Positions 1,270 to 57,729 of a DNA stretch of 64,000 nucleotides are shown here, piece by piece. The stretch is taken from positions 1 to 64,000 of the IMG/VR virus record IMGVR_UViG_3300014208_000033; one strand, given 5' to 3'. The stretch comes from a virus. The notes under the pieces were generated by a model, which was given only the letters and a program-made list of their open reading frames with translations, did not search any database and was not told where the DNA came from. A program made the translations under genes and the position numbers. Position 1 is the first letter of the stretch. Each line of letters begins with the position of its first letter.

Positions 1270-1837
1270 ATTGGTTTGGTTTACGGTACAGTCTACAATC
1301 GGCATCGACGGTCGATACCTCAGTAGACTTGATCTACCAGTAAACCTATTCGCATTTTCAATGATCCTTGCCTAGCCGTGCCGCCCCTCCAGGGGACATG
1401 CTCGGGTCGGACAGTCTTACTCTATCCAAGATGCATGCCAGATTCAGAATTTTCGTAATAACGGCTCCAGGAGCGCATCCATTACCCTGTTACCCTGGTA
1501 TGTTAGTCTCTTTTCATCCTATCTAACACGCAAAGTCTTTTTGCCCAAAGTCTATCCTCCGCTCCAGATGCCGATTCCACCTATGCATCGCTTTATCCTA
1601 GTCTCAAACCCTAACACGGTCGATTGATCCTATCACTCTACCCTATAGCCTATCCTGGAGCGCATCTAGCATCAGGCTCAAATTGTCCTACGTCTTACTT
1701 GCCGATACCCTTTGCGCCACTATGAGACTAGTCTAACACGATGCTAACATCGGCAGTTTTATTGTATCCTTTATCTTAAGAGACTCAAGCCCATGGCGTA
1801 GTATCCTCCGGCTCCAGGAAGCGCATCTAGCACCATA

Positions 1838-2007
1838 GTAACGTTCCGTTACCTCGTTTGTAACGATCCATGACTTCCTACATATATAGTAACGTTCCGT
1901 TACCTTGATCCTATCACATGTAACGTTCCATGACCTTACTTGTAACGATCCATGACCAACTGTTTCTTTTGTATTGTTCCGTTACTTGTCATGTCACGTT
2001 CCGTTAC
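1838..2007. repeat. Array of seven 15-bp repeats GTAACG(T/A)TCC(G/A)T(T/G)AC, iteron/operator-like
   Basis: Copies start at 1838, 1860, 1889, 1920, 1942, 1971 and 1993. Confidence 0.9.
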
Positions 2008-2553
2008 CTATCAAGTTTTGACTATCAATAGTTGACACTACCATCATTTTCTGATACCTAAGCTCATTTCTGGAGCCTACTTATCACGCAAAGACTCATG
2101 GCCATTCCTACCTCCGCTTATCAAATTTCGCTTGATCCTATCATGATTCTGGCATAGTTATTGAAACCCGCTTCACTACTGGATTCTTCTCCAGAATCGA
2201 TTATCTAGGGTGTCATGGTGTCCTAGTACCTTTGAGCCTGCTAATGCTTCTCAGTGTAACCTGGAGCGTTTACGGGCATGGCTTGCATGAATAGCGATTC
2301 TGATACTGATAGCATCACGCAAAGGTATCACTACTGCAACAATTCCGAATTTTCGTAATGTGGCATCACGTTTGCTTGCTACCCTTTGCGTGATTCTACA
2401 ACGGTAAGATTCTTGTGTGCTAGATTTTGAAAATAGTTGATCTATTTGATCAATTGTAATCCTGGAGCCTAATCTCAATACAACATGCGATCTAATTTCA
2501 ATGCCGAAACGCCACCCTATTGCGATTCACGCATAGAGTGGAGGTAGTTGAAA

Positions 2554-2868: not shown

Positions 2869-3193
2869 ACTCTAGCACTCTACTACCCTGGAGCCCATGC
2901 CTACAGAGGCATGGGCTTCTTGCGTTCCAGGGACCAAGCAAGCGCAAGGGTACTAGCCATGCCTAGTGCTAGGTAGGTCGCGCCAACATGACGCTAGCGT
3001 GAGGCAACCTGGAGCGCGCAAGATGGTACGTCACGCGTAGGCTCCAGGGTACTAGCACCATGAGACGCTGGCCCATGGGCATGGCGTAGTGTCACGCGTG
3101 ACCCTGGAGCTGAGGTACGCCTAGCACCCATGCGTACCAGCCTAGCAAGTAACGAGCCATGATGGACTATTTCATGAACTAATGGACATGTGT

Positions 3194-7424: not shown

Positions 7425-7822
7425 TCTATCTCCTTCAAGAACTCTTCAATCTCATTTTGAAGAGAAGAAGTCATATCATTAGTTAGGCACCTAACTAACA
7501 AGTTCTTAGCTTTGGTTAACTTACTAGAATCGTCGAGTTCCCACTGGCAATCCATGTTTTTACGCTGCTCTGCTGTGTAAGTATCATCACTGTGGCAACA
7601 ATCAGTTCCGCTATTTGATTCATCTCTCATCTTGGAATAGTTACAGAAACCATCGCTAGCGTCGTTCCAATATTTGCAAAAACAACACGCATCGTCCTCA
7701 TGATTTTTACATTGCTTACGTTTGATGTTACGCTGGAACCACTGAACTTCCCAGTGTTTGCATTTGTGGTTTTCCGAAATTTCGGAACCACACTTATCGC
7801 ACTTTAAGATAGATACCACCAC
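7421..7822 (-). CDS. Cys-rich hypothetical protein
   Basis: Multiple CxxC motifs. Confidence 0.6.
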   Translation of the reverse strand: MVVSILKCDKCGSEISENHKCKHWEVQWFQRNIKRKQCKNHEDDACCFCKYWNDASDGFCNYSKMRDESNSGTDCCHSDDTYTAEQRKNMDCQWELDDSSKLTKAKNLLVRCLTNDMTSSLQNEIEEFLKEIE

Positions 7823-8078
7823 CTATATTCGATACTCCACAAGAGTTCTTAATCACATCACCAACTTTAGGAACGACACCGTAACCGATCTTCTTAGTCT
7901 CTTCCATGTAGTTAGCAACATCTTGAGTAGTTCTCATAGTAACACCACAGGATTGCATCTGCTCTAACCAAACTTTGTTAGTGTCGTTCTGTCCGTCCTT
8001 CATACCAAGAGAGTAACAGATCATGCATGCTACACAAGCAAGGCATATCAGCAACAAAAGCCTGTCGCCCTCGTTCAT
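7794..8078 (-). CDS. Membrane protein
   Basis: N-terminal hydrophobic segment; likely start MNEGD coupled to the upstream stop. Confidence 0.55.
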   Translation of the reverse strand: MNEGDRLLLLICLACVACMICYSLGMKDGQNDTNKVWLEQMQSCGVTMRTTQDVANYMEETKKIGYGVVPKVGDVIKNSCGVSNIGGGIYLKVR

Positions 8079-53819: not shown

Positions 53820-55035
53820 TTCGCTTCACAATTCCTTCCGCTGTGAAAAAGTATTTCTTGTCCTTGAGTGAGAGTTTGTGCTCTGAGATCATGTTAGTAA
53901 GTCTCTCAGCCTGGATAGAGTCTCTGATCTCACGCTCGTAGTCAGCCTTCTCATCCTCATCGATGTTATAGCTGAACGTCTTACTTCGCTCACTGAGATG
54001 ATTAAGCACACTCATCCACTTAGGAGCCATCTTGTTAATGTGATAATTTTCCATCACATATTTATAAGCAGCCTTGCCAACCTCAGTGATCTTTGAACGG
54101 TTTTCAATCAGCGACTCAAGAATACCAGGAAAATCCTCAATCTTATCAGCCAAGAAACCATTCTCACCATTGACGATATCTTTGTTCCAAAGCTGACAAT
54201 TAGAACCAACGAAACACCGCTTGAACATACCAGTCTCAAGGAACTTGATATTCGACTTGCACACCGAGAACTCATTTTCCACCAGCGGGGCAATGCAGAT
54301 ATCGAAGTCGAGACTGAACAGCATATCGTAGAAGTTGTTTGAGTTAACCCACGGGAACAACTGAACCATTCCAGTTTTCATCAAATTCAGCGGAGCCCAA
54401 CCAAGGAAACAGAAATCGACCTTATCGTAATACTTCTTAACTAGTGGAACAAGCAAGTCATCAAGGACTTTCCAGTCCTCTTGATGGTGCATTCCACCCC
54501 ACCAGCCGACAGAGATTTTTCGCTTAGAAATGAAAGAAGAACGCTGACTATCGATCTCAGATTCGCTATGAGATTGATATATCGCGTTCGGTATAACAAC
54601 TATGTTTTCAGTTCTACCAGTAGCCTTAGTCACAGCCTCTTTCAACTGAGGTGTCGTAGTGGTGATGATCTCAATCTTAGACAGCGCGAGCTTATGAGTA
54701 TCGATAGGGTCTTTCTTGGAAGTCCTCTTATACTCAAGCAGATCCCAATAGCAAGGGTTATGTGACGGCAGGGCGAAGAAGTTATCATCAATATCAACGT
54801 ATGAAATTGACTTAAACCTATTCACTCTGTTCATCATCTCATCGCCCATTGGACGCTGGAACCCAATCACATCAAATTTGTGGTTCTCCCTACCAAACCA
54901 CTCATAGTCAAGAATAACATCAGAGCCACATGCATCAATCTGATCTAAGTCATTCAAGTGGGCGAGAGGAATATATCCACGGTAAAAATAACACCCACCG
55001 TTATCAGGAGCCAGAAACAGAGGTCTTGGTTTCAT
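53803..55035 (-). CDS. Glycosyltransferase, GT4-like (GT-B fold)
   Basis: GC.FYR...P, DIDD, VIPNAI, GW.G...H..D, IAPL..N.F..CKSNIKFLE. Confidence 0.88.
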   Translation of the reverse strand: MKPRPLFLAPDNGGCYFYRGYIPLAHLNDLDQIDACGSDVILDYEWFGRENHKFDVIGFQRPMGDEMMNRVNRFKSISYVDIDDNFFALPSHNPCYWDLLEYKRTSKKDPIDTHKLALSKIEIITTTTPQLKEAVTKATGRTENIVVIPNAIYQSHSESEIDSQRSSFISKRKISVGWWGGMHHQEDWKVLDDLLVPLVKKYYDKVDFCFLGWAPLNLMKTGMVQLFPWVNSNNFYDMLFSLDFDICIAPLVENEFSVCKSNIKFLETGMFKRCFVGSNCQLWNKDIVNGENGFLADKIEDFPGILESLIENRSKITEVGKAAYKYVMENYHINKMAPKWMSVLNHLSERSKTFSYNIDEDEKADYEREIRDSIQAERLTNMISEHKLSLKDKKYFFTAEGIVKRNDRRS

Positions 55036-55207
55036 TATTCTCCACCTTTGCGAAAAGCATTGCAGTATTGAGGAAAGCAAGTGCAGTAAAGACACCACCA
55101 ATTACGTTATACCAGAAGAACACATGGTTAAGCATGAATGCAGAGAAAGCAAGTTCAGCAGCAACTACGATAGATTGTGCTGTAGCCTTACTAGATGAGT
55201 GAGTCAT
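55004..55207 (-). CDS. Small two-TM membrane protein
   Basis: AAGGA RBS before MTHSS; two hydrophobic segments. Confidence 0.55.
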   Translation of the reverse strand: MTHSSSKATAQSIVVAAELAFSAFMLNHVFFWYNVIGGVFTALAFLNTAMLFAKVENNETKTSVSGS

Positions 55208-55220
55208 TGTTAATCCTTTT

Positions 55221-55297
55221 TGGTGGGCGTAGCAGGGTTCAAACCTGCAACTAAACGGGTAGAGGCCGTTTTCTCTATTCATTTGAGTTATACGCCC
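55221..55297 (-). tRNA. Atypical tRNA, Arg(UCU)-like
   Basis: GGGCGTA/TACGCCC acceptor stem plus ACCA; anticodon arm AACGG-CCTCTAC-CCGTT; T arm GCAGG-TTTGAAC-CCTGC. Confidence 0.7.
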
Positions 55298-55907: not shown

Positions 55908-57056
55908 TTACATTGTTCTGATGGTTCCGTCAGTTGCTACACCAATGAGAGCACCTTTAGTAAGTTCATAAGTTCCAGTACCCCAAGTAACAGGAACAAA
56001 TCCAGATTCGATCATCTGGTGTCGTTCAGGACCACTACCAAACAAAACACAGGGGGTAGTTAGGTTGTTCTTCATAAAAGAAGAAAAAGCTTCAAAATTC
56101 TTAATTAAGTGCCCACCCCACTTGGAATAAACCCTAAATCCATCAATCTTTTCAATCATATCAGTTTTAGTGAAGCAAAGACCTGTGACTCCAGCCAACT
56201 CAATGACATACTTCAACTCTTCAATATCCAACCACCCAAGCACCATCGGTCGATTATTTGGATCACCGTATTCGTACTCCATTCCAATAGTACGAATAGT
56301 TTCAATTGTCTTACTAAATTCAACTGGTCGGCCCATTCGACCTGCACCAGTACGGGTGTTATATATCTTGCTAATTCCAAGAATCTCAAGATCACGAAGT
56401 TCTTGCCTCATACCAAATGAAGTAAGAACATTGGCAGGCATTGTTCGTTGACTAACAAAAGGATAATCACCGTGAACAAGATCAAGCTGAACACTCTGAG
56501 AACCTTCAAAGAGAACTCGTTTACCGTTGGAAATGAGATCATTAACAAGATCGAAAGTATTTACAATGAACACACCTTCAATAGAACTAAGAGTTTCATT
56601 TCCAAGAACAGTCATAGCAGTTCGATTAGCTCGTCGTGCAGCGGCGGGGCCAATACCTTTACCAGTAGTTAAAAGGCCGTCGTTAGGATGATCAGCCTTG
56701 ATATCTTCATCGGTAATTACGATACACTTCTTATCGATGTAGAGATCAAACTTCACATCAGGATTAGTCTTACGAACGTAATCAATCTCGATTTCGAGAG
56801 TCTTGGGATTTACATAGCACTCAGGTCCAATGATGCACATCTTACCAGAAGCACAACCAGAAGGAAGGTGATTAAGTTCAAGCCGAATCTTATCATTGAT
56901 CTTGATTCCGTGTCCAGCATTAGGACCACCGGTAAATCGAACAACTGCATCGTAGTTCTTGTTAGAAGCAAGATAGTCAATAACTTTACCCTTGCCTTCG
57001 TCTCCATGTGTAATACCAACGACACAGAGGCATTGACGATCAAACATCTTCTTCAC
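55908..57056 (-). CDS. purA: Adenylosuccinate synthetase-like protein (short form, divergent Asp loop)
   Basis: GDEGKGK, GGPNAGH, LPSG, TTGKGIGPA, EGSQ, GDYPFV, GWLD, TK.D, GP.R. Confidence 0.9.
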   Translation of the reverse strand: MKKMFDRQCLCVVGITHGDEGKGKVIDYLASNKNYDAVVRFTGGPNAGHGIKINDKIRLELNHLPSGCASGKMCIIGPECYVNPKTLEIEIDYVRKTNPDVKFDLYIDKKCIVITDEDIKADHPNDGLLTTGKGIGPAAARRANRTAMTVLGNETLSSIEGVFIVNTFDLVNDLISNGKRVLFEGSQSVQLDLVHGDYPFVSQRTMPANVLTSFGMRQELRDLEILGISKIYNTRTGAGRMGRPVEFSKTIETIRTIGMEYEYGDPNNRPMVLGWLDIEELKYVIELAGVTGLCFTKTDMIEKIDGFRVYSKWGGHLIKNFEAFSSFMKNNLTTPCVLFGSGPERHQMIESGFVPVTWGTGTYELTKGALIGVATDGTIRTM

Positions 57057-57288
57057 CTTTCACTGTAATTGAGTTAGCAACGTTAGGAAGAACTGACATT
57101 CTAGTTGACATTGAAACGATCTCGATGCCTTTATTGTATTTATCAATCTTCAAATTGAAATTTCCAAACTTAGTCTTTATGATGAAGTTATCAGATATGA
57201 CAACATAACTTTCTTGTGGAAGTGATTTATAGTAACCAACCTTAGACTTCTTCAACTTACATCTTATTTCTTCAAAGTAAATCTTCAT
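57040..57288 (-). CDS. Hypothetical protein
   Basis: AGGAG RBS. Confidence 0.6.
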   Translation of the reverse strand: MKIYFEEIRCKLKKSKVGYYKSLPQESYVVISDNFIIKTKFGNFNLKIDKYNKGIEIVSMSTRMSVLPNVANSITVKGEEDV

Positions 57289-57309
57289 CGTTTCTCCTAA
57301 GATATAAAT

Positions 57310-57498
57310 GTTCTCACCGGCTAGAGTTTCTTACTCTAGTTCTTCCAAACTTTCATAGCTTAAAGATTACTGTTGGGCTACCCATGCAATTTCGCGGTAA
57401 TGGGTTAGTTGAGTGGAACGCCTAGTTCTCAACTATTACAGAATCTTTAACTGAAAGACTAATGGCTGTTTTAGACTCATGAAACTAACGGTGAGAAC
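57310..57498 (-). ncRNA. Structured ncRNA, 6S RNA-like rod (~189 nt)
   Basis: Terminal pairing GTTCTCACCG/CGGTGAGAAC, central bubble, CTTTCA/TGAAAG, TTAAAGATT/AATCTTTAA, two apical hairpins. Confidence 0.6.
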
Positions 57499-57512
57499 AA
57501 GAAAATTGACTA

Positions 57513-57600
57513 TGGCGGATGCTGTAGGATTTGAACCCACGAATGGTTTCCCATTGCCGCATTTCAAGTGCGGTGCCATCAGCCGCTCGGCCAAGCATCC
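57513..57600 (-). tRNA. tRNA-Ser(UGA)
   Basis: CCGCA-CTTGAAA-TGCGG, long variable arm, G discriminator plus CCA. Confidence 0.95.
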
Positions 57601-57603
57601 AGT

Positions 57604-57678
57604 TGGAGCCGACGATTGGATTTGAACCAACAACTTACTGATTACAAATCAGTTACGCTACCGTTGCGTCACGCCGGC
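57604..57678 (-). tRNA. tRNA-Thr(UGU)
   Basis: GCCGGCG acceptor stem, ACTGA-TTTGTAA-TCAGT, CCA end. Confidence 0.93.
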
Positions 57679-57700
57679 TCGTTCTACCTCTTACACATGT

Positions 57701-57729
57701 ATAATACTCTAATCTTCAACTGGAGCCAA
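57701..57729 (-). promoter_or_regulatory. sigma70-like promoter TTGGCT-N17-TATTAT upstream of the tRNA/ncRNA cluster
   Basis: Same GTATTATACATGT core as the promoter at 11364. Confidence 0.65.

What the first reader, a model, noticed from the sequence alone, without database searches (positions are those of the whole stretch)
57310..57498. Phage-encoded 6S-RNA-like structured RNA downstream of tRNA-Thr and tRNA-Ser
Seen on the - strand, starting 14 nt after the tRNA-Ser CCA: a 189-nt stretch folds as a rod. The closing stem GTTCTCACCG/CGGTGAGAAC extends through TTAG-TTTC/GAAA-CTAG and TCTA/TAGA. A central bubble follows (AAACAGCCATTAGT opposite TTTGGAAGAAC), then CTTTCA/TGAAAG, TTAAAGATT/AATCTTTAA, CTGT/ACAG and two apical hairpins (TAGTTGAG/CTCAACTA and ACCCAT/ATGGGT). 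The 3' strand can alternatively form CTAGAGT-AAGAA-ACTCTAG. Established: 6S RNAs are ~180-200-nt rods with a central bubble that mimic an open promoter, sequester housekeeping-sigma RNA polymerase and refold a 3' hairpin after pRNA synthesis. Inference: a phage decoy RNA that could titrate host RNA polymerase during takeover.
Basis: partly seen in the sequence, partly recalled or inferred. Interest (0 to 1): 0.78.

Follow-up and report, generated by a model that had tools for sequence, protein, structure and literature searches.

The report
New tRNA-linked structured phage RNA
A 191-nt stretch just after two tRNA genes in an uncultured phage is a real folded RNA with a second, diverged copy behind another tRNA in the same genome, but its conserved shape is branched and does not look like a 6S RNA, and its job is unknown.

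Summary
The sequence features are real. Window 57309-57499 (- strand) folds far better than shuffles (z -5.2) and starts 13-14 nt after tRNA-Ser. No Rfam family matches, 6S included, even at E<=10.

A paralogue lies at genome 82318-82500 (- strand), 15 nt after tRNA-Lys. An earlier scan note pointed to it, and I verified it. A covariance model built from copy 1 alone finds it as the top hit, full length (23.4 bits, E 2e-4). The two copies share 46 consensus pairs, 16 with changes on both sides.

A natural variant from a wastewater run has 11 substitutions. One pair of them is compensatory, two give G.U pairs, and none breaks a consensus helix.

The conserved fold is an 11-bp closing helix, a long arm capped by a three-way junction with two hairpins, and a 3' hairpin next to the closing helix. 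It is not a 6S-type rod.

The best reading is a new family of tRNA-cotranscribed structured phage RNA. The nearest analogues by position are T4 RNAC and RNAD, whose roles are also unknown.

No expression data and no homologues outside this rare lineage could be obtained.

The parts
57701..57729 (-). sigma-70-like promoter (TTGGCT-17-TATTAT) upstream of tRNA-Thr; putative start of the tRNA-Thr / tRNA-Ser / element transcript
   Evidence: Consensus scan, 9 of 12 matches. It is a consensus match only. The equivalent unit of copy 2 has an 11 of 12 promoter with an extended -10 TG.
57604..57678 (-). tRNA-Thr(UGU)
   Evidence: ARAGORN; Rfam tRNA, 67.5 bits.
57513..57600 (-). tRNA-Ser(UGA), with an encoded CCA ending at 57513
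   Evidence: ARAGORN; Rfam tRNA, 53.5 bits; sequence read.
57500..57512 (-). 13-nt spacer UAGUCAAUUUUCU; its CAAUU(0-2 nt)CU end is shared with the 15-nt spacer of copy 2; candidate processing site
   Evidence: Sequences, aligned. The processing role is inference.
57309..57499 (-). Structured RNA element, copy 1 (191 nt)
   Evidence: z -5.2. No Rfam match. A model built from it finds copy 2 at E 2e-4. 46 consensus pairs, 16 compensatory.
57489..57499 (-). P1 5' strand UGUUCUCACCG. It pairs with 57309-57319 (CGGUGAGAACA) to form an 11-bp closing helix.
   Evidence: 11 of 11 pairs are kept in copy 2 (UGUUUGCACUA/UAGUGCAAACA), 4 of them changed on both sides.
57458..57488 (-). 5' joining region (about 30 nt), not conserved in sequence or pairing.
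   Evidence: The natural variant UC>AG at element positions 25-26 breaks the predicted pairings. Copy 2 has different content here.
57357..57452 (-). P3 long arm (57438-57452 pairs with 57357-57373), capped by a three-way junction
   Evidence: 15 consensus pairs: 6 changed on both sides and 3 on one side between the copies. Coordinates. The variant A>G at position 127 gives a G.U pair.
57406..57435 (-). Apical hairpin A (UAGUUGA.../...UCAACUA)
   Evidence: 7 consensus pairs, 4 changed on both sides in copy 2.
57380..57405 (-). Apical hairpin B (ACCCAU/AUGGGU) with a variable loop
   Evidence: Variant U100>G plus A115>C is a compensatory U-A to G-C change. Three substitutions and the 2-nt deletion fall in its loop. 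5 consensus pairs with copy 2.
57321..57339 (-). P4 3' hairpin (CUAGA.../...UCUAG), 1 nt from the 3' strand of P1
   Evidence: The 5 pairs are identical in copy 2, where the hairpin abuts P1 directly. It forms in the MFE of the natural variant and of copy 2.
57040..57288 (-). Downstream 82-aa ORF with a Shine-Dalgarno AGGAG; its ATG is 20 nt after the element. No terminator lies in between.
   Evidence: ORF list, sequence, terminator scan. No Pfam or PHROG match.

Best explanation
The element is one of two paralogous copies of a previously undescribed structured non-coding RNA of this phage, read from the - strand.

Shown:
- Each copy lies 13-15 nt behind a tRNA.
- Both share a fold: an 11-bp closing helix P1 that pairs the two ends, a variable 5' joining region, a long arm P3 capped by a three-way junction with two hairpins, and a 3' hairpin P4 that abuts the 3' strand of P1.
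- The helices are maintained by compensatory and G.U-compatible changes.

Inferred:
- Each copy is made as part of a tRNA precursor from a sigma-70-type promoter.
- Its 5' end is set free when the tRNA 3' end is processed (RNase Z, RNase E or an exonuclease route).
- P1 seals both termini against exonucleases, so the RNA accumulates as a stable species.
- It then acts in trans as a scaffold or decoy for a protein or RNA partner, as is assumed for the T4 tRNA-cluster RNAs RNAC and RNAD.
- The partner and the biological role are not known.
For: - Folding: copy 1 has z -5.2 and copy 2 has z -6.1. The region after the third tRNA has z +1.4.
- Paralogy: a covariance model built from copy 1 alone, with filters off, finds copy 2 as the top hit in 20 kb, full length with exact ends (23.4 bits, E 2.2e-4; next best 12 bits).
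- Covariation in the model-fitted alignment: 99% of cells paired and 17 pairs changed on both sides. Sliding the partners by 1-3 columns gives 31-43% paired and 0-2 such pairs.
- RNAalifold on that same model-fitted alignment keeps 46 pairs, 16 of them compensatory.
- A natural variant from a wastewater run has 11 substitutions and a 2-nt deletion. One substitution pair is compensatory, two are A>G changes giving G.U, and none breaks a consensus helix.
- Only 1 of the 11 substitutions falls on the 48% of positions that are consensus-paired. Binomial P is about 0.008 (my calculation).
- Strand: G.U pairs (1 in copy 1, 4 in copy 2, 2 more in the variant) fit only the - strand RNA. Copy 2 is 5.4 kcal/mol more stable on the - strand.
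- Context: both copies follow a tRNA with a similar spacer, sit behind sigma-70-like promoters and have no terminator after them. That argues against a gene-specific riboswitch.
- Precedent: T4 has tRNA-Arg followed directly by rnaD and rnaC, whose roles are unknown (PMC3014915, PMC9697503). GOLLD and ROOL RNAs are often near tRNAs in prophages (PMC5737381).
Against: - There is no evidence of expression, ends or stability. No RNA run could be used, and the laid runs are contigs and probably DNA.
- Only two paralogues and one near-identical variant are known.
- The c1/c2 alignment was fitted to the model, which inflates the pair counts.
- There is no terminator after either copy, so the RNA could remain the 5' part of the downstream mRNA.
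- The model's E-values are rough because calibration was shortened.
- For copy 1 alone the + strand folds as well as the - strand.
Confidence: 0.5

Rival explanations
1. Cis-acting 5' module of the downstream message. After the tRNAs are cut out, the element stays on the mRNA as a base-paired 5' end. It then protects the mRNA from 5'-end-dependent decay (RNase J or RNase E), or it insulates tRNA processing from translation of the next gene.
For: There is no terminator between the element and the next gene. The Shine-Dalgarno sequence and ATG of the 82-aa ORF follow 20 nt after P1. P1 pairs the very 5' end that tRNA 3' processing would create.
Against: A simple hairpin would be enough for protection, yet both copies keep a three-way junction and P4 through many compensatory changes. 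Copy 2 is followed not by an ordinary gene start but by an orphan tRNA-like half running into a 156-aa ORF. No anti-Shine-Dalgarno sequence occurs in the element (sequence).
Confidence: 0.25
2. tRNA-related decoy or processing mimic. The coaxial P1-P4 stack imitates the acceptor/T-arm stack of a tRNA. It would engage a host enzyme that handles tRNAs (RNase P or Z, a modification enzyme, or a tRNA-cleaving defence nuclease).
For: P4 abuts the 3' strand of P1 with a 0-1 nt linker, as the T arm abuts the acceptor stem. T4 RNAC, the positional analogue, carries a canonical T arm GGGUUCGAAUCCC next to its closing strand. The P4 loop of copy 2, UGAAAAU, has 7 nt with U at position 1 and A at position 5, which could form a T-loop-like fold (sequence; structural knowledge, not tested).
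Against: ARAGORN and the Rfam tRNA and tmRNA models do not match the element (only a 13-bit, E 1.8 permuted-tmRNA hit that spans the real tRNA-Lys). P1 is 11 bp, not 7. The P4 loop of copy 1 differs (AAGAA, or a 9-nt loop). No CCA follows P1. No RNA-repair or CCA-adding genes are in the contig.
Confidence: 0.1
3. 6S-like decoy of host RNA polymerase. The closing helix mimics downstream DNA, the joining regions mimic the open bubble and P3 mimics upstream DNA.
For: The length is about 190 nt. The topology is closing helix, then a large asymmetric internal region with a hairpin on its 3' side, then a long arm. 6S RNAs are diverse in sequence.
Against: No 6S family matches at E<=10 for either copy. 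The rod extension and bubble are not conserved and are broken in a natural variant. The closing helix is only 11 bp. In its predicted MFE fold, the arm of copy 2 branches 8 bp from the 'bubble' and its 3' side has no single-stranded nucleotides. The phage appears to use sigma-70-type promoters itself.
Confidence: 0.05
4. DNA-level element: a miniature transposon with terminal inverted repeats, a cruciform, or an origin or packaging signal. The RNA fold would then be incidental.
For: There is a perfect 11-bp terminal inverted repeat. Copy 1 folds equally well on both strands. The CTAG palindrome is enriched: 3 and 6 copies against 0.4 expected.
Against: The inverted repeats differ between the copies by four compensatory changes. 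That is expected for base pairing, not for a shared transposase site. No target duplication is present. The G.U-type changes would be A.C mismatches in a + strand or DNA hairpin. There are only two copies, both in the sense direction right after tRNAs. No further significant copy exists in the 107.7-kb contig.
Confidence: 0.05

Closest known systems
Bacteriophage T4 small stable RNAs RNAC (species 1, 139 nt) and RNAD (species 2, 119 nt)
   Same: Both are phage-encoded and lie directly behind a tRNA inside a tRNA transcription unit (T4: tRNA-Arg, 1 nt, rnaD, 6 nt, rnaC). Both come as two RNAs per genome. In T4 RNAC the ends are paired with a hairpin next to the 3' closing strand. The biological role is unknown (PMC3014915, PMC9697503).
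   Different: There is no detectable homology: the two-copy model R2 gives nothing on rnaC or rnaD. RNAC has a canonical T arm and the present RNAs do not. The T4 RNAs are adjacent to each other, whereas these are 25 kb apart behind different tRNAs. These are longer (183-191 nt) and have a three-way junction.
6S RNA (Rfam RF00013 and related 6S families)
   Same: Similar length. The ends are paired in a closing helix. A large internal unpaired region carries a hairpin on its 3' side, followed by a long arm.
   Different: No model match. The conserved fold is branched, not a rod. The closing helix is short and perfect (11 bp) rather than long and bulged. The bubble sequence and size are not conserved between the copies.
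GOLLD and ROOL large ornate RNAs
   Same: These are structured RNAs of phages and prophages that are often next to tRNAs and possibly co-transcribed with them (PMC5737381). Their function is unknown.
   Different: They are three to four times larger (ROOL averages 581 nt). No Rfam match was found here. Nothing here indicates multimer formation; the enriched CUAG palindromes are only a hint.
Bacterial Y RNA / YrlA with Ro (Rsr)
   Same: A paired 5'/3' stem plus a branched module; some are phage-encoded.
   Different: No Rfam match. No TROVE/Ro gene in the contig. P1 has no bulged Ro-binding helix.

Membership tests
6S RNA | Scores against the curated 6S covariance models (RF00013 and the other 6S-type families of Rfam 15) | tested here: not met
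   cmscan with permissive filters and E<=10 on 521-nt stretches around both copies lists only tRNA-related hits. The gathering-threshold scan of the whole contig also gave none.
6S RNA | A conserved unbranched rod: a long interrupted closing stem, one large central bubble and a terminal stem | tested here: not met
   The rod extension is broken by natural variant positions 25-26 and is absent from copy 2. The consensus is P1 (11 bp), a branched P3 and P4.
6S RNA | Binds the housekeeping RNA polymerase holoenzyme and templates pRNA synthesis | not testable with these tools
   Needs biochemistry or small-RNA sequencing of infected cells.
T4 RNAC/RNAD-type tRNA-cluster stable RNAs | Encoded immediately downstream of a tRNA within the tRNA transcription unit of a phage | tested here: met
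   13 nt after tRNA-Ser and 15 nt after tRNA-Lys, with promoters upstream of the tRNAs and no terminator in between. T4 layout.
T4 RNAC/RNAD-type tRNA-cluster stable RNAs | Sequence and structure homology to rnaC or rnaD | tested here: not met
   Model R2 with filters off on the T4 tRNA region gave no hit on rnaC or rnaD. The only hit was 10.6 bits, E 0.38, elsewhere in the region.
T4 RNAC/RNAD-type tRNA-cluster stable RNAs | Accumulates as a discrete stable RNA in infection | not testable with these tools
   No usable RNA run. The laid runs are contigs.
tRNA / tmRNA-like RNAs | Recognised by ARAGORN or the Rfam tRNA or tmRNA models; canonical T loop and a 7-bp acceptor stem | tested here: not met
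   ARAGORN finds only the 4 true tRNAs in the contig. There is one 13-bit (E 1.8, gathering score 47) permuted-tmRNA hit that includes the real tRNA-Lys T arm.
Y RNA / YrlA | Match to Y RNA models and a linked Ro (TROVE) protein | tested here: not met
   No Rfam hit. PF05731 is absent from the contig, which is 71% complete.
Miniature inverted-repeat transposable element | Several copies with the same terminal inverted repeats, flanked by target-site duplications | tested here: not met
   Two copies whose terminal repeats differ by compensatory changes. No duplication is present. No further significant copy was found.

The most novel reading that the evidence does not exclude
The two RNAs may found a new class of small ornate phage RNA that is made as a tRNA-precursor by-product and works as a decoy or scaffold during takeover. 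Three versions are open:
- It sequesters a host enzyme that handles tRNAs, or a tRNA-cleaving defence nuclease.
- It sequesters RNA polymerase in a way not related to 6S RNA.
- It self-assembles through its palindromic CUAG elements, as larger tRNA-linked RNAs (GOLLD, ROOL) are now known to do.
Probability: 0.15. Interest if true: 0.8.

Novelty: new variant of a known kind. Interest (0 to 1): 0.45.

Why it matters
Phage non-coding RNAs are poorly charted, and the T4 tRNA-cluster RNAs have had no known function for decades. A second, unrelated case would be informative: a structured RNA placed exactly behind tRNAs, kept in two diverged copies with compensatory changes. It would suggest that riding on tRNA precursors is a recurrent way for phages to make stable RNAs. 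It would also give a small, well-defined fold (P1, three-way junction, P4) for probing, pull-downs and structure work. The practical limit is that the lineage is rare and its host is unknown.

Tried and rejected
- **Rfam.** Gathering-threshold scans of the whole contig and E<=10 scans around both copies gave only tRNAs and one group I intron.
- **Cultured phages.** blastn in distant mode matched only the tRNAs. The major capsid protein is at most 27% identical to any cultured phage. The 82-aa neighbour has no match.
- **Pattern scans for the P1/P4 frame.** Viral contigs gave 3 hits, all coding with no tRNA, so chance. Metagenome contigs gave 0. Genome contigs gave 0.
- **tRNA-plus-spacer pattern in viral contigs.** 27 loci were returned; none has the element by model R2 with default filters.
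- **Relatives through proteins.**
  - The PurA-like protein and the capsid protein, used as single queries in viral contigs, found nothing.
  - P0004 in metagenome contigs found nothing.
  - The large terminase has only 4 relatives, at 37-53% identity and on short contigs, among 5.8 billion proteins.
- **Expression.** No RNA holder is listed for the stretch. The four laid runs are contigs, and X3 is labelled RNA-Seq but is probably DNA, so nothing can be said about transcripts or ends.
- **Third copy.** R2 with filters off gave only borderline hits: L007 1476-1599 (16 bits, E 0.018) and window 7723-7860 (14.5 bits, E 0.054).
- **Antisense targets in the phage genome.** The longest perfect complements are 13 and 14 nt, near chance expectation. 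One lies on the non-coding strand and the other is broken by the natural variant.
- **Other readings.**
  - Small ORFs inside the element: a 14-codon ORF without a Shine-Dalgarno sequence, changed non-synonymously in the variant; rejected.
  - Purine-riboswitch-like three-way junction upstream of the PurA-like gene: rejected, because there is no Rfam hit, the junction lengths differ, and copy 2 is not near purine genes.
  - RNA repair, CCA-adding, Ro and sigma genes were not found in the contig. The RNAP search had no working control.

Full report
**What is there**

The window is the first 64 kb of a 107,668-bp IMG/VR viral contig, estimated 71% complete. On the - strand, tRNA-Thr(UGU) lies at 57604-57678 and tRNA-Ser(UGA) at 57513-57600. 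They are followed by a 13-nt spacer and then a 191-nt stretch, 57499-57309. The ends of that stretch pair perfectly over 11 bp (UGUUCUCACCG / CGGUGAGAACA).

The + strand folds equally well. The stretch after the third tRNA of the window (tRNA-Arg) does not fold better than shuffles (z +1.4) and is in fact the start of an ORF. A good fold is therefore not a general property of tRNA trailers here.

The element ends 20 nt before the ATG of an 82-aa ORF with a strong Shine-Dalgarno sequence. No terminator-like site follows it. A sigma-70-like promoter lies at 57729-57701, just upstream of tRNA-Thr.

**No known family**

Rfam 15 gives only the tRNAs in the window at gathering thresholds. An E<=10 scan of 57200-57720 gives nothing on the element. 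In particular there is no 6S, SRP, tmRNA, Y RNA, riboswitch or ribozyme family. blastn against 50,697 phage records matches only the tRNA genes.

**A second copy**

ARAGORN on the whole contig finds a fourth tRNA, tRNA-Lys(UUU), at 82516-82588 (-). Fifteen nt downstream lies a 183-nt stretch (82318-82500) with these features:
- Its ends pair over 11 bp (UGUUUGCACUA / UAGUGCAAACA).
- Its 5' flank ends in the same UUCU before UGUU.
- A hairpin GCUAGA-UGAAAAU-UCUAGC directly abuts the 3' closing strand.

It folds with z -6.1 on the - strand (-61.5 kcal/mol), against -56.1 kcal/mol on the + strand. Its tRNA sits behind an 11 of 12 sigma-70 promoter with an extended -10 TG, and again no terminator follows. 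Rfam has no match for it. The only item is a 13-bit permuted-tmRNA hit (E 1.8, gathering score 47) that spans the real tRNA-Lys T arm.

**Test of paralogy and of the fold**

I built a covariance model from copy 1 alone, using the fold that includes the 3' hairpin. With default filters it missed copy 2. With filters off it found copy 2 as the best hit in 20 kb on both strands, aligned end to end with the exact boundaries 18318-18500 of L005 (23.4 bits, E 2.2e-4). The next hit scored 12 bits.

On the resulting alignment:
- 99% of the pair cells are standard pairs and 17 pairs are changed on both sides.
- When every 3' partner is slid by 1-3 columns, only 31-43% of cells pair and 0-2 pairs are changed on both sides.

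This alignment was fitted to the model, so the figures lean towards the structure. RNAalifold, run on that same fitted alignment, still keeps 46 pairs, 16 of them compensatory:

| Helix | Consensus pairs | Changed on both sides |
|---|---|---|
| P1 | 11 | 4 |
| Long arm P3 | 15 | 6 |
| Hairpin A | 7 | 4 |
| Hairpin B | 5 | 1 |
| P4 | 5 | 0 (invariant) |
| Three extra pairs | 3 | 2 |

**A natural variant**

Public runs that hold the stretch come from groundwater, wastewater and freshwater metagenomes. In one wastewater run (X3) a 351-nt contig covers 57298-57508 with 11 substitutions and a 2-nt deletion. Mapped on the RNA:
- U100>G with A115>C turns a U-A pair of hairpin B into G-C.
- A127>G and A147>G turn U-A pairs into U.G. 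The second of these is also seen in a freshwater run (X7).
- Three substitutions and the deletion fall in the loop of hairpin B.
- One substitution falls in a bulge.
- UC>AG at positions 25-26 falls in the 5' joining region.

None of the 11 breaks a consensus helix. Only one falls on the 48% of positions that are consensus-paired, and it keeps the pair (binomial P about 0.008, my calculation). The G.U-type changes, and the G.U pairs already present (1 in copy 1, 4 in copy 2), would be A.C mismatches on the + strand or in DNA. The functional strand is therefore the - strand RNA, the same sense as the tRNAs.

The block of likeness in that contig (57298-57508) brackets the element within about 10 nt on each side. 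One boundary is a contig end and the other a switch to unlike sequence. This fits a discrete module but proves little.

**Why it is not a rod**

That extension competes with the 3' hairpin CUAGAGU/ACUCUAG.
- In copy 1 the two folds differ by only 0.7 kcal/mol.
- The UC>AG variant destroys UCUA/UAGA, and its MFE forms the 3' hairpin.
- Copy 2 has no equivalent of the extension, and its MFE also forms the 3' hairpin.

The conserved architecture is:
- P1, 11 bp.
- A variable 5' joining region: about 30 nt in copy 1; a small hairpin, 12 nt and an extra hairpin in copy 2.
- P3, capped by a three-way junction (5'-UGUAA, hairpin A, hairpin B, 6-7 nt, ACAGUA-3').
- P4, 0-1 nt from the 3' strand of P1, so that P4 can stack on P1.

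**What it most likely is**

The data show a strand-specific, selectively maintained RNA structure present in two diverged copies, each placed 13-15 nt behind a tRNA with a similar spacer.

The downstream neighbours differ. Copy 1 is followed by the 82-aa ORF and a PurA-like gene. Copy 2 is followed by an orphan tRNA-like half running into a 156-aa ORF, then a tRNA-Leu with a group I intron. That speaks against a riboswitch-type control of one pathway.

My best reading (confidence 0.5) is an RNA gene product made from tRNA precursors:
- tRNA 3'-end processing frees its 5' end.
- P1 protects both ends.
- The RNA acts in trans through a partner that remains unknown.

All steps after 'conserved structure behind tRNAs' are inference.

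The main rival (0.25) is a cis-acting, base-paired 5' end that stabilises or insulates the downstream message. It fits the lack of a terminator, but not the elaborate conserved junction or the context of copy 2. A tRNA-stack mimic or decoy (0.1), a 6S-like decoy (0.05) and a DNA-level element (0.05) are less likely, for the reasons listed with each rival.

**Comparison with the known**

The closest analogue by position is T4. There tRNA-Arg is followed after 1 nt by rnaD (119 nt) and after 6 more nt by rnaC (139 nt), with a homing endonuclease gene in the same tRNA cluster. Their roles are still unknown (PMC3014915; PMC9697503, which confirms RNAC by Northern blot and classes RNAC and RNAD as late RNAs). 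T4 RNAC folds with paired ends and a canonical T arm next to the 3' closing strand. This is the same topological place as P4 here. However, the two-copy model finds nothing in the T4 region, and P4 has no T-loop consensus. The resemblance is one of layout, not of family.

GOLLD and ROOL RNAs are also often near tRNAs in prophages, perhaps through co-transcription (PMC5737381). They are far larger and do not match.

For 6S RNA, both testable defining features (model match, conserved rod) were tested and not met. RNAP binding could not be tested.

**Lineage and limits**

The phage is very poorly sampled:
- Its large terminase has only four relatives (37-53% identity) among 5.8 billion proteins.
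- Its capsid protein is at most 27% identical to cultured phages.
- Pattern scans for the RNA frame found nothing real in IMG/VR, JGI metagenomes or GTDB genomes.
- A tRNA-plus-spacer scan also found nothing.

There is no evidence on expression. The family therefore rests on two paralogues and one close variant.

**Verdict**

The element is best described as a new, lineage-restricted family of tRNA-linked structured phage RNA of unknown function. The scan had noted this same stretch and its paralogue before, on overlapping windows of the same genome.

Noticed in passing
genome 82318-82500 (- strand) = L005:18318-18500, outside the window: Second copy of the RNA, 15 nt after tRNA-Lys(UUU) (82516-82588). 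Between its strong promoter (82715-82687) and the tRNA lies a leader of roughly 100 nt with a perfect 12-bp hairpin, CCUCCUGGUAGC-UCU-GCUACCAGGAGG.
   Followed up: yes
genome 105476-105599 (- strand) = L007:1476-1599: Borderline hit of the two-copy model (16 bits, E 0.018). UGUUCUCAU...CUAGUGAGAACA forms a 9-bp closing stem nearly identical to P1 of copy 1 (z -4.5). However, it overlaps a 44-aa membrane-like ORF and contains an intrinsic terminator. It could be a degenerate third copy or chance.
   Followed up: partly
window 55908-57056 (- strand): PurA-like adenylosuccinate synthetase homologue (Pfam E 1e-63), two genes downstream of the element. It has one 94%-identical relative; all others are 43% identical or less. 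Earlier notes describe a rebuilt aspartate-binding loop, which I did not examine.
   Followed up: partly
window 2343, 7769, 15505, 20975, 24035, 35058, 38647, 43908, 52149, 59930, 61217 and L007:~1500-1530: A palindromic motif, TTCCGAAA(T)TTTCGGAA, recurs at least 11 times. In L007 it forms the stem of a canonical terminator (ACCCATTCCGAATATTCGGAATGGGTTTTTT). The motif may therefore mark terminators or a regulator site.
   Followed up: partly
window 1700-2250: A stretch with no ORF of 40 aa or more, carrying direct repeats of GTAACGTTCCGTTAC-like units (repeat families D6 and D8). It is a candidate origin or iteron region. A nearby window, about 2870-3150, is as CTAG-dense as copy 2.
   Followed up: no
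   Followed up: partly
L009:2483-5743 (genome 82982-86242, - strand): A 1086-aa ribonucleotide reductase with an intein splicing domain and a TSCPD domain lies directly upstream of the tRNA-Lys unit.
   Followed up: no
whole contig: CTAG is depleted genome-wide (232 seen, 397 expected from base composition) but enriched in the two RNAs. Copy 1 has 3 and copy 2 has 6, against 0.4 expected each. Most sit in palindromic stems such as P4.
   Followed up: partly
window 55030-55297 (- strand): tRNA-Arg(UCU) is not followed by a structured element (z +1.4). A small ORF with a Shine-Dalgarno sequence starts 15 nt after it.
   Followed up: yes
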